Sequence record: OZ209023.1
DNA from: Escherichia phage T4
Length of the DNA: 64,000 nucleotides
Reading direction: 5' to 3' (one strand)
The notes beneath the pieces were generated by a model. The model did no database searches, was not told where the DNA came from, and worked only from the letters and a program-made list of their open reading frames with translations. The translations under genes and the position numbers were made by a program. Positions 9,368 through 30,843 of the stretch are shown one piece after another (position 1 is the first letter of the stretch; each line of letters begins with the position of its first letter).

Positions 9368-9838
9368 TTAATCATGTTTCCACACCCCATCGGTATTTGA
9401 CCAAAGTCGCTGATTATCTGATCCTCGCCACAGCTTTTTGGTCGGAAGATTTTTCTCATACTTCCCATCAATAATAACATCAACATATTTAAGCATTTCT
9501 AGTTGTTTAATATCTTCAAACTTATATCCTGTCCACAACCAGATATCTTTCTCCGGAAATCTTGCTTTAACCCAAGAAACTAAATTTGAAATCTCTTCTC
9601 GGTTCTGTGGATAAAGTGGGTCACCGCCGGTTAAGGTAAGGCCTTGGATATACGATTTGCTTAAATGGGACGCAAGTTCTTTAACGGTATTCATAGTGAA
9701 TAACTGTCCGTTACGAGCATTCCAAGTACTACGATTATAACAACCTTCGCATTTATGCAAACATCCAGTGACGAAGAGAACGACCCTACATCCAGGGCCG
9801 TTAACGAAATCGCATGGATAAATTCTATCATAATTCAT
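9368..9838 (-). CDS. nrdG: Anaerobic ribonucleotide reductase activase NrdG (radical SAM)
   Basis: 156 aa from the ATG at 9836-9838; MNYDRIYPCDFVNGPGCRVVLFVTGCLHKCEGC cysteine cluster; the track ORF 9368-9922 carries a spurious N-terminal extension. Confidence 0.85.
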   Translation of the reverse strand: MNYDRIYPCDFVNGPGCRVVLFVTGCLHKCEGCYNRSTWNARNGQLFTMNTVKELASHLSKSYIQGLTLTGGDPLYPQNREEISNLVSWVKARFPEKDIWLWTGYKFEDIKQLEMLKYVDVIIDGKYEKNLPTKKLWRGSDNQRLWSNTDGVWKHD

Positions 9839-10460
9839 CTTTATATTTCCAAGTATATCCCTTATGAATAGATTGAATTCCTTTGCAACATTTATAAACA
9901 GCAGAATGAAAAAATCCTGCATTTCTTATTTCAGTTGCTCCAGTTAGTTCTATTGTATTTCCGTCTGGTGAATAGCCAATAACCGTTTTGGTGTTAAAGC
10001 GATTTCTAGAACTATTTTTGATATGCTCTTTATGATTAGTAGACAAAGTTCTTCCTGTTAGCCCATCAGATATCCTTTTTCCAAAATCATCAGGAAGAGT
10101 TACTTTAGACCTAGCTATGCTCATTAGCTTCTTAGTTTTATCGCTTCTTTTTGCGCCACGCTGATTTTCAAATTTCTTAGCTTTTGCATACGCGTATTGT
10201 GAAGAAGTAACTTTTCTATGCTTACTATTACTCATTATCCAATATGCATCATACATCTTTCCACCATATATTTTAGCCAATAAATGGTGAGCAGTATAGT
10301 GGGCCTTATAAGTTAAAAATACTAAGTTGTCTAAATCATCTGAACCACCCATACTTCTTGGAATTATATGATGAAGTTCATACCCGGCTTTAGTTTGACG
10401 GGGCTTAGATGGGTGTTCAGCAGAATTAACTAGATTTGAATAGATTCTGTCATAATTCAT
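9828..10460 (-). CDS. mobC: HNH homing endonuclease between nrdD and nrdG (T4 mobC position)
   Basis: 210 aa; HHIIPRSMGGSDDLDNLVFLTYKAHYTAHH; its 3' end overlaps the nrdG start. Confidence 0.75.
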   Translation of the reverse strand: MNYDRIYSNLVNSAEHPSKPRQTKAGYELHHIIPRSMGGSDDLDNLVFLTYKAHYTAHHLLAKIYGGKMYDAYWIMSNSKHRKVTSSQYAYAKAKKFENQRGAKRSDKTKKLMSIARSKVTLPDDFGKRISDGLTGRTLSTNHKEHIKNSSRNRFNTKTVIGYSPDGNTIELTGATEIRNAGFFHSAVYKCCKGIQSIHKGYTWKYKDEL

Positions 10461-11736
10461 TGGTGCTTAACCCTATGCATGATTTCTTTATTTTTACCGA
10501 GATTAAATCCGCGTTCGTTCGGATTTCCCAAATAACCACATGTTCTTCTTATGGTATTCATCTTTTTAGGATCAGTTTCTCCACAAATAGAACAAACAAA
10601 TCCGTTTTCAGTAGGAGTCATTTCATGGGTACTTCCACATGTAAAACATTTATCTACTGGCATATTAACACCAAAATAATCTAAATGCTGTGCAGCATAA
10701 TCCCACACGGCCTCAAGACCTTTTAAGTTATTTTTCATATCAGGAAGTTCAACATAAGAAATGTGACCACCTGTCGCAATGAAATGATATGGCGCTTCAC
10801 GAGAAATCTTTTCAAACGGAGTAATATTTTCTTCTACTGAAACATGGAAACTGTTAGTGTACCAGCCTTTATCGGTAACATCTTTTACGCTTCCATATTT
10901 TTCTGTATCGAGTTTACAGAAGCGATAACACAGGTTTTCAGCAGGAGTCGAATATAAACTAAAAGCAAATCCGGTTCTTTCAGTCCACTGTTTAAGATGA
11001 GCATTCATTTTAGTTAAAATTTCTCGTCCAATATCACGACCGACAAGAATATTCAATTCGTGAATACCAATGTATCCTAAAGACACTGAACTTCTACCGT
11101 TTTTAAATAACTCAATTATGTCGTCATCAGGTTTAAGACGAACCCCGAATGCACCTTCTTGGTAAAGAATAGGAGCAACAGTAGCTTTAACTCCTTTTAA
11201 GGAACTAATTCTACACATCAAAGCTTCAAAACATAAATCCATTCGTTCATTAAATAGCTCAACAAATTTCTGTTCATTGAACTGTGTTCCAATATAAGAA
11301 TCTAACGCGATGCGAGGAAGATTCAGTGTTACAACACCAAGATTATTGCGTCCATCAAGAATTTCATTGCCAGTCGAATCTTTCCATACGCTCAAGAAAC
11401 TACGGCAACCCATCGGAGAAACAGGAACAGATGAACCAGTGATAGCTTTATTGTTCTTAGCTGAAATAATATCAGGATACATCCTTTTGCTTGCGCACTC
11501 TAGAGCAAGCTGTTTAATATCATAGTTCGGATCGTCTTTATAAAGATTAACACCTTCTTCAACGAACATAACAAGCTTAGGGAAAATAGGAGTTATCCCA
11601 TCACGACCAAGACCTTTAATACGATTTTTCAGAATTGCTTTCTGAATCATTCGTTCAGTCCAGTCAGTTCCCGTACCAAATGTAATTGTTACAAAAGGAG
11701 TCTGTCCGTTTGAACTGAATAACGTGTTCACTTCAT
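10457..11736 (-). CDS. nrdD: Anaerobic ribonucleotide reductase NrdD, exon 2
   Basis: Glycyl-radical C-terminus RRTCGYLG; frame continuous to the inferred 3' splice site; the two exons total 606 codons. Confidence 0.8.
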
Positions 11737-12769
11737 CAATGTGTTCAGTAGAGTTCGCTACTTCTCTACCCGTTTATATGAAACAATGTAATTTGGATAA
11801 TTGTCATCTAAACACAAATCTTTAATACGACTTGGGTGGAGTTTTAAATCTTTAGCAGCATCCACAAATGATTTATAGATATTGTCATTTATTTTAACAT
11901 ATTCTGGGACGGGATGAATTGTTATTTTTATATCTATAACATTTGGATGATTACTAACCTGTTCTTCAGAGCATTTAAGAAATTTTGCAGCTGATTTAAA
12001 ACTTCTAAATTTATTTCCGGATTTTAAAGCTATAGAAACAGTCTTTTTAGCCGTTCTACTACCAATATTATTTTTAACATGAGCTTCACTTCTACTATTA
12101 TTTTTATAATGCTCAATCAATTTCTCTCGTATCTTATCTTTATGTTTTAAAGATAAGATTTTACCTTTATGGGCATTACTAAGTTTTTGCTTATGTTCTT
12201 CTGAATCCGGATATTTGTTAAATTTATATCCACCTATAGATTTATTAAGAATAAATTCGTTATTAAAATATTTCCTAATAAGCATTTCTTCATGTTTAAG
12301 GGCCGATTCATAAGAATCAAAAACTTGAAGAATTATCCACTTAGCTTTATAATCTTTAAGCTTTTCTTTAACAAGCTTAGATGACGAATTGTATTCTTTC
12401 CAATTTGTATCTTTACCATATATAGTTTTGAATTTTTTAAAACCTATATAAAAAGACTTATCAGGAAATCTTACCATATAGGTAAATGCTACAGAATTGG
12501 CAATTTTTAAGCTTTTTCTTAATTTCCATTTCATCGTTTCACCTCGTATTCATATTTATACGAGGATAAACAGCTGCATGTCACCATGCAGTTCAGACTA
12601 TATCTTCAACTCTTAGAGTTGTCTGCCGTTTCGGGTCGCTTGACCCTACTCCCTTACATTCATCAGGGATAGTCGTTGGGCATTTACAGCTACTGCTGAT
12701 TTAGCAACGGATTGTCTCAGTGAGAGTTTCCCGTTTTAGGCAGATTTTACATGAGCTTGACTTACGTTA
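11737..12769 (-). mobile_element. Group I self-splicing intron in nrdD (inferred length 1033 nt) carrying I-TevII
   Basis: Exon 1 frame hits a stop at 12762-12764; boundaries inferred from a 605-aa NrdD, exon ending in U and intron ending in G. Confidence 0.65.
11758..12534 (-). CDS. GIY-YIG intron homing endonuclease I-TevII
   Basis: 258-aa ORF inside the nrdD intron; GIY-YIG-like N-terminus (YMVRF...FYIGF). Confidence 0.8.
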   Translation of the reverse strand: MKWKLRKSLKIANSVAFTYMVRFPDKSFYIGFKKFKTIYGKDTNWKEYNSSSKLVKEKLKDYKAKWIILQVFDSYESALKHEEMLIRKYFNNEFILNKSIGGYKFNKYPDSEEHKQKLSNAHKGKILSLKHKDKIREKLIEHYKNNSRSEAHVKNNIGSRTAKKTVSIALKSGNKFRSFKSAAKFLKCSEEQVSNHPNVIDIKITIHPVPEYVKINDNIYKSFVDAAKDLKLHPSRIKDLCLDDNYPNYIVSYKRVEK

Positions 12770-13307
12770 ACTCATAAGCTTGGAATGCATCGTATACGTC
12801 TTTTTCTGTTTTAGATTGAGCATAATTCAACGCATCAGCGATTTGCCATTTTTCTGCATCCTCAATATGTTTTGCATAGGTGCGTTTAACATAAGGAGAA
12901 AGTACTTTATCTACATTCGCAAAAGTCGTTCCGCCGTATTGGTGAGAAGCAACTTGCGCAGTAATTTGTGCCATAATTGCAGTAGCAACTCCAATTGATT
13001 TAGGAGTTTCAATCTGCGCATTACCAAGCTTAAATCCGTTTTCAAGCATTCCTTTTAAATCTACTAAACAGCAATTAGTAAATGGAAGAGCAGGGGAATA
13101 ATCAATATCATGCACGTGAATAATTCCGCTTTCATGCGCTTTCATAATAAAAGACGGGACCATATTTTTGGCAATGTGTTTAGACACAATACCAGCCATA
13201 AGGTCCCGTTGAGTTGGAAAAACACGAGAATCTTTATTAGCATTCTCGTTTAAAAGGTCTTTATTAGTTTTATGAATTAATCCTTCAATTTCTTTTTCAA
13301 TTGTCAT
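12770..13307 (-). CDS. nrdD: Anaerobic ribonucleotide reductase NrdD, exon 1
   Basis: ATG at 13305-13307 overlapping the gene 49 stop (ATGA). Confidence 0.8.
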
Positions 13308-22276: not shown

Positions 22277-22306
22277 ATAGTACCATAAAGCTTTATGCTT
22301 GTAAAC
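22277..22306 (-). promoter_or_regulatory. T4 early-type promoter
   Basis: Minus-strand GTTTACaagcataaagctttaTGGTACTATAC. Confidence 0.55.
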
Positions 22307-22325
22307 CGTTTTGTGAAAAAATTTT

Positions 22326-22353
22326 GAAATAAAAAAGGGAGCCCGAAGGCTCC
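22326..22353 (-). terminator. Intrinsic terminator (gggagcc-UUCG-ggctccc then U6)
   Basis: Strong hairpin followed by UUUUUUAUUU on the minus strand. Confidence 0.7.
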
Positions 22354-29722: not shown

Positions 29723-30043
29723 TTATTCTTTAAATCTAATCAATTTATTCATAGACTTTGAAACTTCGGCACGAACCTCATGTAGATTTTTGAGCTGTTC
29801 AAGACGCTGCGTATAGTAAGCAATTTCATCTTCTTCGAGACAGTCCTGCGAATCTTCTTTAAGATAACGTGCATAGTCCTGGAAAGCGTTACGGACTACT
29901 TCCTGGAAGTCATCAAGACTTTGAATTTTCTTAGGAGCAACAGATACACGACGAGGGGCAGTATAATACTCATAACCAAACCCTGCGCTTAATTGAGCCA
30001 TTAGTATTTTTCCTCTGGTTGGAACACTGCACGACAAGCCCAC
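29723..30043 (-). CDS. Hypothetical protein (vs.3 position)
   Basis: 106-aa ORF. Confidence 0.5.
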
Positions 30044-30303
30044 ATACTGGCTTCTTTGAGTTTCGTTTTAGCAATAGTTAACTGATCGAGACTTTCAGCA
30101 TAATTCTTCGCGAATTCACAGTCTTCGCAATTATCTAGTGCTTCCCAGAATTCATCATATAAAGCATCAAAGATAAGTCCTAAACGAACTTCAGCGTCTT
30201 TAATAGCATTTACTTTACCGATTTTCTCTTCAGTATGTGGTTTATAACCCTTAATATCTTCAATCATATTTGACTTCCTCACCAGTACATAAATCGTATT
30301 CAA
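30001..30303 (-). CDS. Hypothetical protein (vs.4 position; candidate anti-CBASS sponge Acb2 by gene order only)
   Basis: 100-aa ORF, second after regB; assignment is positional, not sequence-verified. Confidence 0.45.
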
Positions 30304-30481
30304 CTAAACGAATAGGTTCATGAATGCCATAGCCTTGAACAGAAATTTCTGTCGTAGGATAAATTCCATCAATATCACCCATATTCCACGCTTCATTAAA
30401 TTGCTGTTCGCCTGAGTTACTAAACCACTCGGCGAAAGCATTTAGCACATCTTCAGAACCTTCAATAATTATCTTTGCCAT
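30260..30481 (-). CDS. Hypothetical acidic protein (vs.5 position)
   Basis: 73-aa ORF. Confidence 0.5.
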   Translation of the reverse strand: MAKIIIEGSEDVLNAFAEWFSNSGEQQFNEAWNMGDIDGIYPTTEISVQGYGIHEPIRLVEYDLCTGEEVKYD

Positions 30482-30843
30482 TACAAACTTTCAGTAAAGG
30501 TACGAGCGATAACGTCGCGCTGCTGTTCCGGAGTCAGAGAGTTAAAGCGAACTGCATAACCGGATACACGGATGGTCAGCTGCGGATATTTTTCCGGATG
30601 CTTAACTGCATCTTCCAGAGTTTCACGACGCAGAACGTTAACGTTCAGGTGTTGACCACCTTCAATTTTAACTGTAGGTTGTGGCTCAATTTCAATTTCA
30701 CGGGCATGCAAACCATAGAAAATTTCTGGGTCTACAAAAGAGTCCTCTTTAAAGGTTTTAGAGACAATAATTCGTGCTTGAATACCATCTTCAAAATAAA
30801 TAGTACCTTTATGTGTGCCTTCAAGAATTTGATATGCTTTCAT
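30481..30843 (-). CDS. Autonomous glycyl-radical cofactor (GrcA/YfiD-like) protein (vs.6 position)
   Basis: 120 aa; C-terminal RVSGYAVRF glycyl-radical fingerprint. Confidence 0.7.

What the first reader, a model, noticed from the sequence alone, without database searches (positions are those of the whole stretch)
30481..30843. Phage-encoded GrcA-like glycyl-radical spare-part protein
The 120-aa ORF ends with RVSGYAVRF, the glycyl-radical fingerprint of pyruvate formate-lyase and its small stand-in GrcA/YfiD. The same window encodes the glycyl-radical anaerobic reductase NrdD (RRTCGYLG) and its activase NrdG, so the phage carries the activase, a glycyl-radical enzyme and a possible repair module for oxygen-cleaved host PFL.
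Basis: partly seen in the sequence, partly recalled or inferred. Interest (0 to 1): 0.45.

Follow-up and report, generated by a model that had tools for sequence, protein, structure and literature searches.

The report
T4 vs.6: known GrcA spare part
The ORF is phage T4 gene vs.6 (Y06I), a small stand-in for the oxygen-damaged radical domain of the host enzyme pyruvate formate-lyase; its function was shown biochemically in 2001, so the finding is correct but not new.

Summary
The window is phage T4. RVSGYAVRF lies at residues 92-100, not at the very end. NrdD (RRTCGYLG) and NrdG are in the window. NrdG as its activase is unsupported.

Beyond the finding, the gene is a mosaic. The last 60 codons include a 178-nt run identical to E. 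coli grcA (E. coli vs Salmonella: 151/180). The 5' half is phage-specific but distantly homologous to the GrcA N-terminus. Klebsiella Jiaodavirus phages carry a K. pneumoniae-type tract in the same place. A four-taxon test gives 18:0:0, so host alleles replaced the phage radical domain at least twice. In Aeromonas and jumbo Yersinia phages the gene sits among nrdD/nrdG. That fits a role in securing PFL-made formate, the reductant of T4-type NrdD.

Verdict: already known, low interest.

The parts
30481..30843 (-). vs.6 / Y06I coding sequence (120 aa plus TAA stop), a phage-encoded GrcA-type autonomous glycyl radical cofactor
   Evidence: ORF listing; 100% identity to T4 records and the RefSeq annotation vs.6 'autonomous glycyl radical cofactor GrcA'; Pfam Gly_radical 2.8e-18; PDB 6owr GrcA 8.6e-42
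30664..30843 (-). Phage-type N-terminal half (residues 1-60). It is AT-rich (GC 0.33, GC3 0.18), conserved among T4-like phages, and only 27-28% identical to the GrcA N-terminus, though homologous to it
   Evidence: 16/60 aa and 79/180 nt identical to E. coli grcA; profile-profile hhalign of phage N-halves against bacterial N-halves gives probability 98.1%, E 1.1e-13; GC3 values
30484..30663 (-). Glycyl radical domain (residues 61-120, EGGQHLN...TFTESL), 60/60 aa identical to E. coli GrcA and 178/180 nt identical to E. coli grcA
   Evidence: GC 0.49 and GC3 0.42, against a window background GC3 of 0.232 +/- 0.062 with a maximum of 0.40
30488..30665 (-). 178-nt run of exact identity to E. coli grcA (gene nt 179-356 = grcA nt 200-377): a host-derived recombination tract
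   Evidence: alignment; exact-match check; it lies inside 30477-30665, the only stretch of the 64-kb window that matches all 5426 E. coli genomes
30544..30570 (-). Gly loop RVSGYAVRF (residues 92-100). Gly95 (30559..30561) is the predicted radical site, equivalent to GrcA Gly102 and PflB Gly734
   Evidence: translation; residue-by-residue alignment to 6owr and to PflB structures
10457..13307 (-). nrdD, the anaerobic class III ribonucleotide reductase: two exons (10457..11731 and 12762..13307) split by a group I intron that carries I-TevII (11758..12534); Gly loop RRTCGYLG at 10527..10549
9368..9838 (-). nrdG, the radical-SAM activase of NrdD

Best explanation
The ORF is T4 gene vs.6 (Y06I), a full-length but diverged homolog of the bacterial spare-part protein GrcA/YfiD.

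Mechanism, from published in-vitro work on Y06I and GrcA: when oxygen hits active host pyruvate formate-lyase, the PflB chain is cut at the radical glycine (Gly734) and the enzyme dies. Host PFL activating enzyme (PflA) installs a glycyl radical on Gly95 of Y06I. The radical domain of Y06I then docks into cleaved PflB in place of the lost C-terminal domain and passes the radical to Cys419. [quoted passage not shown]

Inferred benefit to the phage: in micro-oxic gut-like conditions this keeps fermentative ATP and acetyl-CoA production going in the infected cell. It also keeps up the supply of formate, which is the electron donor of the T4-type class III reductase NrdD, and so supports anaerobic dNTP synthesis for phage DNA.

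Shown here at the sequence level: the radical domain of the T4 gene is a recently imported E. coli grcA allele joined to an older, phage-specific N-terminal half. The equivalent segment in Klebsiella Jiaodavirus phages is a K. pneumoniae allele. Host-to-phage recombination therefore keeps the part that must fit host PflB and PflA matched to the current host.
For: Identity and family: T4 vs.6, RefSeq product GrcA; Pfam Gly_radical 2.8e-18; best NCBIfam model TIGR04365 spare_glycyl, 3.7e-45; 6owr GrcA 8.6e-42, residues 61-120 identical; N-half homology, probability 98.1%.

Biochemistry from the literature: PMC8683613 says that YfiD and T4 Y06I restore O2-damaged cPFL, that the radical is installed by PFL-AE, and that these are the only two validated spare parts. 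PMC13450708 and PMC12338860 give the radical transfer from GrcA Gly102 to PflB Cys419.

Formate link: PMC4390871 states that the E. coli, T4 and L. lactis class III RNRs use formate as electron donor and that PFL makes it. Synteny agrees: nrdD-nrdG-vs.6-nrdC-nrdH in Aeromonas phage PX29, with vs.6 overlapping nrdG by 23 nt; the same order in IMG/VR contig L136; and a grcA-like gene between nrdD and nrdG in jumbo Yersinia phages. NrdD is found in 2920 phage records, including the T5-like carriers.

Mosaic: T4 matches E. coli at 178/180 nt in the C-half, against 151/180 for E. coli vs Salmonella and 167/180 for E. coli vs Citrobacter. The N-half matches at only 79/180. GC3 is 0.18 in the N-half and 0.42 in the C-half, and none of 224 background blocks reaches 0.42. 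It is the only host-matching stretch in 64 kb. The Klebsiella phage matches K. pneumoniae grcA at 124/125 nt. Four-taxon site patterns are 18:0:0, or 10:0:0 outside the searched k-mer.
Against: No in-vivo phenotype of a vs.6 knockout was found in the searchable literature, so the benefit to the phage is inferred. In T4 itself vs.6 lies about 17 kb from nrdD/nrdG, and in T5-like and Biquartavirus phages it lies among tRNA genes, so linkage to the RNR genes is not universal. The protein scores 153.3 bits against the NCBIfam GrcA equivalog, below its 170-bit cutoff, because the N-terminal half is diverged. The N-terminus of YfiD affects how efficiently the radical is installed (PMC13450708), so the phage protein may differ in kinetics or regulation. 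The K. pneumoniae comparison used contigs chosen for an exact 52-nt match to the phage, which biases that stretch. The test was therefore repeated outside it.
Confidence: 0.9

Rival explanations
1. The phage protein is activated by the phage's own radical-SAM activase NrdG rather than by host PflA, making a self-contained phage activase/cofactor pair.
For: nrdG is in the same genome. In Aeromonas phages the grcA-like gene directly follows nrdG and overlaps it by 23 nt, and in jumbo Yersinia phages it lies between nrdD and nrdG.
Against: The published activation of Y06I is by PFL-AE (PMC8683613). Activase specificity follows the Gly loop: PFL-AE accepts RVSGYAV but not the RNR loop RVCGYLG (PMC13450708). 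Every phage copy examined, including those next to nrdG, keeps the PFL-type loop RVSGYA(V/I)RF. The radical domain tracks host grcA alleles, which is what one expects if host partners must recognise it.
Confidence: 0.07
2. vs.6 is a spare part for the phage's own oxygen-sensitive NrdD, or otherwise acts in nucleotide metabolism, rather than for host PFL. Nolan et al. 2006 proposed the nucleotide-metabolism idea.
For: PMC1524935 suggested a role in nucleotide metabolism from the shared Gly_radical domain. Some phages show synteny with nrdD/nrdG. The reviews note that spare parts for other glycyl radical enzymes have not been excluded.
Against: The radical domain is 60/60 identical to GrcA and 79% identical at the DNA level to pflB. 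NrdD's C-terminal Gly loop is different (RRTCGYLG), and class III RNRs are structurally set apart from PFL-like enzymes. PFL rescue has been shown directly.
Confidence: 0.03
3. The near-identity of the 3' half to E. coli grcA reflects extreme purifying selection or convergent codon usage, not recent recombination.
For: The 60-residue domain is identical or nearly identical in protein sequence across the Enterobacterales genera examined, so selection on the protein is very strong, and grcA is a highly expressed gene.
Against: Bacteria with the same protein sequence differ at 13-29 of 180 synonymous positions, while T4 differs from E. coli at 2. The GC3 of the T4 C-half (0.42) matches E. coli (0.43) and exceeds all 224 background blocks in the window. 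The Klebsiella phage matches K. pneumoniae instead, with site patterns of 18:0:0. Other phage lineages with almost the same protein are only 71-84% identical in DNA.
Confidence: 0.03

Closest known systems
E. coli GrcA / YfiD (autonomous glycyl radical cofactor; PDB 6OWR; NCBIfam TIGR04365; InterPro IPR011140)
   Same: Both are small stand-alone proteins (120 vs 127 aa). The C-terminal radical domain is 60/60 identical, including RVSGYAVRF and the radical glycine. The N-terminal halves are homologous (hhalign probability 98.1%). The published activity is the same: activation by PFL-AE and rescue of O2-cleaved PFL.
   Different: The N-terminal 60 residues are only 27-28% identical, 7 residues shorter and phage-specific, which puts the whole protein below the TIGR04365 cutoff (153.3 vs 170 bits). 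It is encoded by a lytic phage. The gene is a DNA mosaic of an AT-rich phage 5' half and a host-allele 3' half.
C-terminal glycyl radical domain of pyruvate formate-lyase PflB (PDB 1H16, residues ~697-759)
   Same: This is the part that vs.6 replaces. It aligns over residues 58-120 at E 5e-26 with the same Gly loop, and it is 79% identical at the DNA level to E. coli pflB.
   Different: vs.6 lacks the entire ~700-residue catalytic barrel with Cys418/Cys419, so it cannot be an enzyme on its own.
Phage-encoded GrcA-like genes in other lineages (PHROG 1209; Mosigvirus, Jiaodavirus, Slopekvirus, Karamvirus, T5-like Demerecviridae, Aeromonas T4-like phages, jumbo Eneladusvirus)
   Same: They share the two-part architecture and the PFL-type Gly loop. 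tblastn finds hits in 1588 phage records, and the protein matches PHROG 1209 at 1.2e-62.
   Different: Only Tequatrovirus/Mosigvirus carry the E. coli-type DNA tract (643 records at >=95%), and only Jiaodavirus carries the K. pneumoniae-type tract (122 records at >=95%). Other lineages are 64-84% identical to host DNA. Gene context also differs: the vs cluster in T4, the nrdD/nrdG cluster in Aeromonas and jumbo phages, and tRNA clusters in T5-like phages.

Membership tests
[quoted passage not shown] | Contains a glycyl radical domain (Pfam PF01228) above the curated threshold | tested here: met
   66.8 bits against a cutoff of 22.2, E 2.8e-18, residues 61-101
[quoted passage not shown] | PFL-type Gly loop RVSGYAV with the radical glycine | tested here: met
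   RVSGYAVRF at residues 92-100, with Gly95 aligned to GrcA Gly102 and PflB Gly734
[quoted passage not shown] | Small stand-alone protein (~14 kDa) that lacks the catalytic barrel and the Cys-Cys active site of PFL | tested here: met
   The ORF is 120 aa with its own RBS, start and stop, and it aligns only to PflB residues 697-759
[quoted passage not shown] | Full-length match to the curated equivalog model TIGR04365 (spare_glycyl) above its cutoff | tested here: not met
   153.3 bits against a cutoff of 170. It is the best-scoring model, and the shortfall comes from the diverged N-terminal half. That half is still homologous by profile comparison (probability 98.1%). RefSeq nevertheless names the protein GrcA.
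[quoted passage not shown] | Radical installed by PFL activating enzyme, and restoration of activity to O2-cleaved PFL | not testable with these tools
   Reported for T4 Y06I by Wagner et al. 2001 (PMID 11444864), as summarised in PMC8683613. The primary paper itself could not be read here.
Class III ribonucleotide reductase system (NrdD/NrdG) as partner of vs.6 | RNR-type Gly loop (RVCGYLG / RRTCGYLG) recognised by NrdG | tested here: not met
   vs.6 has the PFL-type loop. The RNR-type loop occurs only in nrdD, at 10527..10549.

The most novel reading that the evidence does not exclude
Phage grcA-like genes are a host-matched module of the phage's anaerobic dNTP supply. Their radical domain is repeatedly overwritten by the grcA allele of whichever host the lineage currently infects: an E. 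coli allele in Tequatrovirus/Mosigvirus and a K. pneumoniae allele in Jiaodavirus. This keeps it compatible with host PflB and PflA. Their selective value would be to keep PFL producing formate, the reductant for the phage's own class III reductase NrdD, when oxygen intrudes. The phage-specific N-terminal half would then tune activation in the infected cell. The recombination part is strongly supported here. The formate/NrdD coupling and the role of the N-half are inference from synteny and known biochemistry. I found no paper in the searchable library that describes the mosaic.
Probability: 0.35. Interest if true: 0.45.

Novelty: already known. Interest (0 to 1): 0.15.

Why it matters
As stated, the finding rediscovers a textbook-level fact about T4. 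Y06I/vs.6 is one of only two biochemically validated glycyl-radical spare-part proteins, and its function was published in 2001. It is a clean example of a lytic phage carrying a repair factor for a host central-metabolism enzyme. The added value here is evolutionary. The functional domain is a freshly imported host allele in at least two phage genera, a clear case of host-to-phage gene conversion that keeps an auxiliary metabolic gene compatible with its host partners. Its recurrent placement among nrdD/nrdG genes also gives a testable rationale, formate supply for anaerobic dNTP synthesis, for why about 1600 sequenced phages keep it.

Tried and rejected
1. AlphaFold2 on vs.6 as a single sequence gave mean pLDDT 34.5 and pTM 0.26. 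The model is unusable, so no fold search was run. Alignments built from my fetched loci are not accepted by that tool.

2. I could not read Wagner et al. 2001, the T4 genome review (PMC150520), Bowman et al. 2019 (PMC6754787) or Wei et al. 2014 (PMC4246965), because none is held. The biochemistry is therefore cited second-hand from PMC8683613 and PMC13450708.

3. Literature searches for a prior description of the vs.6 mosaic or of phage grcA as an auxiliary metabolic gene found nothing relevant. This is absence in a partial library, not proof of novelty.

4. The promoter and terminator scan around vs.6 found no more sites than shuffled sequence gives (8 against 8.5 expected), so it is uninformative.

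5. The neighbouring ORFs vs.5, vs.7 and vs.8 have no Pfam domain related to radical chemistry. No phage-encoded PflA-like activase or flavodoxin lies next to vs.6.

6. I looked for recent host-type tracts in Slopekvirus, Karamvirus, T5-like, Aeromonas and jumbo phages. Their 3' halves are only 64-84% identical to any of 81 bacterial grcA genes, so no recent conversion is detectable there with this reference set. The set lacks many host species.

7. I rejected phage-to-host transfer as the direction. The bacterial 3' halves follow bacterial relationships and bacterial GC3, and E. coli and K. pneumoniae diverge evenly across both halves (170/201 and 159/180).

Full report
**What the window is.** The 4-kb region around the finding is 100% identical to several phage T4 records and 99.7% identical to the reference NC_000866.4. 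In that reference the ORF corresponds to vs.6 (T4p117, NP_049730.1), whose product is "autonomous glycyl radical cofactor GrcA". It lies in the leftward-transcribed block denV - vs.8 - vs.7 - vs.6 - vs.5 - vs.4 - vs.3 - regB - vs.1 - vs - tk.

**Checking the observation.**
- The ORF 30481..30843 (-) encodes 120 aa. It has a GAGG ribosome-binding site upstream, and its TAA stop overlaps the ATG of vs.5.
- RVSGYAVRF occupies residues 92-100 and is followed by 20 more residues, so "ends with" is loose. The motif itself is real.
- Pfam Gly_radical scores 66.8 bits (cutoff 22.2, E 2.8e-18).
- The best NCBIfam model is TIGR04365 spare_glycyl (E 3.7e-45), at 153.3 bits against a cutoff of 170.
- Among solved structures the best hit is E. 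coli GrcA (6owr, E 8.6e-42), then PflB (E 5e-26). Residues 61-120 are identical to GrcA residues 68-127.
- The RRTCGYLG coding sequence occurs once, at 10527..10549 (-), inside nrdD exon 2.
- nrdD, interrupted by the I-TevII intron, and nrdG are both present.

**What is already known.**
[quoted passage not shown] The primary reference is Wagner et al. 2001, BBRC 285:456 (PMID 11444864).
- The 2026 review PMC13450708 repeats this. It adds that PFL-AE accepts an RVSGYAV peptide but not the RNR loop peptide. It also says that removing the N-terminus of YfiD lowers radical installation, and that the role of that N-terminus is "enigmatic".
- PMC1524935 had already listed vs.6 as a conserved Gly_radical ORF in 6 of 6 T4-like genomes.
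Only the idea of NrdG as activase lacks support.

**The gene is a full-length homolog, not a domain fusion.** Profile-profile comparison of eleven diverse phage N-terminal halves against twelve bacterial GrcA N-terminal halves gives 98.1% probability, E 1.1e-13 and 28% identity over 61 columns. The phage gene therefore descends from a whole grcA gene, and its N-half has diverged.

**The DNA is a mosaic.**
- Against 5426 complete E. coli genomes, nt 179-363 of vs.6 match grcA at 98.9%. The first 178 nt do not match at all.
- The pairwise alignment shows a 178-nt run of exact identity, window 30488..30665.
- In the codon alignment the N-half is 79/180 nt and 16/60 aa identical to E. coli grcA. 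The C-half is 178/180 nt and 60/60 aa identical.
- This is not just protein conservation. Bacteria with the same or nearly the same 60 residues differ much more at the DNA level: E. coli vs Citrobacter is 167/180 and vs Salmonella 151/180. T4's ranking of bacterial neighbours copies E. coli's own ranking.
- GC3 is 0.18 in the N-half and 0.42 in the C-half (E. coli C-half 0.43). None of 224 sixty-codon blocks from long ORFs in the window reaches 0.42 (mean 0.232, sd 0.062, maximum 0.40).
- Searching the whole 64-kb window against the E. coli genomes shows that 30477-30665 is the only stretch matching all of them. The other hits are pflB paralog matches at 79% and one 52-nt hit in a single genome.

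**A second, independent case.**
- tblastn finds GrcA-like genes in 1588 phage records.
- In Klebsiella phage Shinkou (Jiaodavirus) the N-half is phage-type: 131/180 nt identical to T4, GC3 0.18. The C-half has GC 0.57 and GC3 0.60, and it carries the Klebsiella-type residues LLDAVEH.
- I scanned metagenome contigs for a bacterial-type grcA (Arg-Val before EGGQ) identical to the first 52 nt of the Shinkou C-half. This gave 25 contigs of up to 620 kb with GC 0.57.
- The GrcA protein on those contigs is exactly GRCA_KLEP7 of K. pneumoniae.
- Shinkou matches this allele at 124/125 over the first 125 nt of the C-half, of which only 52 nt were forced by the search. It then diverges, with 11 differences in the last 55 nt.
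- Four-taxon site patterns over the C-half give 18 sites for (T4, E. coli | Shinkou, K. pneumoniae) and 0 for each alternative. Outside the forced 52 nt the count is 10:0:0.
- E. coli and K. pneumoniae grcA diverge evenly in both halves (170/201 and 159/180), so the mosaic is in the phages.
- Among sequenced phages, 643 records are >=95% identical to the T4-type tract, mostly Escherichia and Shigella phages. 122 records are >=95% identical to the Klebsiella-type tract, all listed ones being Klebsiella phages. Few records fall at 90-95% (2 and 19 in the two searches).
- Other lineages (Slopekvirus, Karamvirus, T5-like, Aeromonas, jumbo) show no recent tract against my 81 bacterial references.
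- The simplest reading is host-to-phage homologous recombination into a pre-existing phage grcA-like gene, on at least two occasions. The result is that the domain which must fit host PflB and PflA stays matched to the host.

**Context and likely benefit.**
- In T4, vs.6 lies about 17 kb from nrdD/nrdG, and its immediate neighbours have no related domains.
- In Aeromonas phage PX29 the order is nrdD-nrdG-vs.6-nrdC-nrdH, with vs.6 overlapping nrdG by 23 nt. IMG/VR contig L136 has the same order.
- In jumbo Yersinia phages the gene lies between nrdD and nrdG.
- T5-like and Biquartavirus copies sit among tRNA genes, but T5-like phages also encode NrdD.
- PMC4390871 states that the E. coli, T4 and L. 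lactis class III reductases use formate as electron donor and that PFL is the fermentative source of formate. [quoted passage not shown]
- My inference, not shown, is that the phage keeps PFL alive to secure ATP and acetyl-CoA, and especially formate for its own anaerobic dNTP synthesis, during oxygen fluctuations.
- Every phage copy examined keeps the PFL-type Gly loop, including those next to nrdG. This argues for activation by host PflA rather than by NrdG.

**Verdict.** Interest in the finding as given is low. The host-allele mosaic and the nrdDG linkage are the only parts that may be new, and they are of moderate, specialist interest.

Noticed in passing
window 30488..30665 (-): A 178-nt run within vs.6 is exactly identical to E. 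coli grcA. It lies inside the only stretch of the 64-kb window (30477-30665) that matches all 5426 E. coli genomes, and its GC3 (0.42) exceeds every background block. This points to recent host-to-phage recombination that replaced the radical domain.
   Followed up: yes
L004:1681-1805 (Klebsiella phage Shinkou) vs L169-L193 (K. pneumoniae contigs): The Jiaodavirus vs.6 homolog carries a K. pneumoniae-type grcA tract (124/125 nt) at the same position. The four-taxon site patterns of 18:0:0 show a second, independent host-allele replacement.
   Followed up: yes
L003:1359-4660; L136:1-1960; L194:1279-5543: In Aeromonas phage PX29, IMG/VR contig L136 and the jumbo Yersinia phage fHe-Yen9-04, the grcA-like gene is embedded in the nrdD/nrdG (and nrdC/nrdH) cluster. 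In PX29 it overlaps the nrdG stop by 23 nt.
   Followed up: partly
window 30001..30303 (-): vs.4 matches Pfam Acb2_Tad1_hairpin (E 1.1e-19), the family of phage cyclic-nucleotide sponges that counter CBASS/Thoeris defence. From my own knowledge this is already described for T4 Vs.4.
   Followed up: no
window 30260..30481 (-): The vs.5 ORF here is 73 aa and its ATG overlaps the vs.6 stop (TAATG). NC_000866.4 annotates vs.5 as 177 nt, and the 4-kb region differs in length by 8 nt between the two T4 records, so the strains or records differ by indels here.
   Followed up: no
window 22288..22339: A 52-nt match at 96% to a single E. coli genome (strain BE104), in an unannotated place. It is absent from the other 5425 genomes and remains unexplained.
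   Followed up: no
L123:1441-1827 and L125 (IMG/VR contigs of 151 kb and 85 kb, GC 0.29): A grcA-like ORF with an in-frame TAG about 34 codons in, in two contigs that are identical over this ORF. It is either a pseudogene or a phage that reads TAG as sense.
   Followed up: partly
L114:1501-1859: The Jiaodavirus-type copy in a 167-kb IMG/VR contig is frameshifted after residue ~42. This is a sequencing error or an inactivated copy.
   Followed up: no
window 30481..30843 (annotation): Annotation is inconsistent. PHROG 1209, which holds this protein, is labelled 'unknown function'. GenBank phage records variously call it pyruvate formate-lyase, 2-ketobutyrate formate-lyase, formate acetyltransferase or hypothetical protein. 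It also scores below the NCBIfam GrcA cutoff (153 vs 170 bits).
   Followed up: partly
L117 (IMG/VR contig, 19 kb): This 'viral' contig encodes a full-length bacterial-type GrcA closest to Yersinia (164/180 nt). It is probably bacterial DNA or prophage-flanking DNA rather than a phage gene.
   Followed up: no
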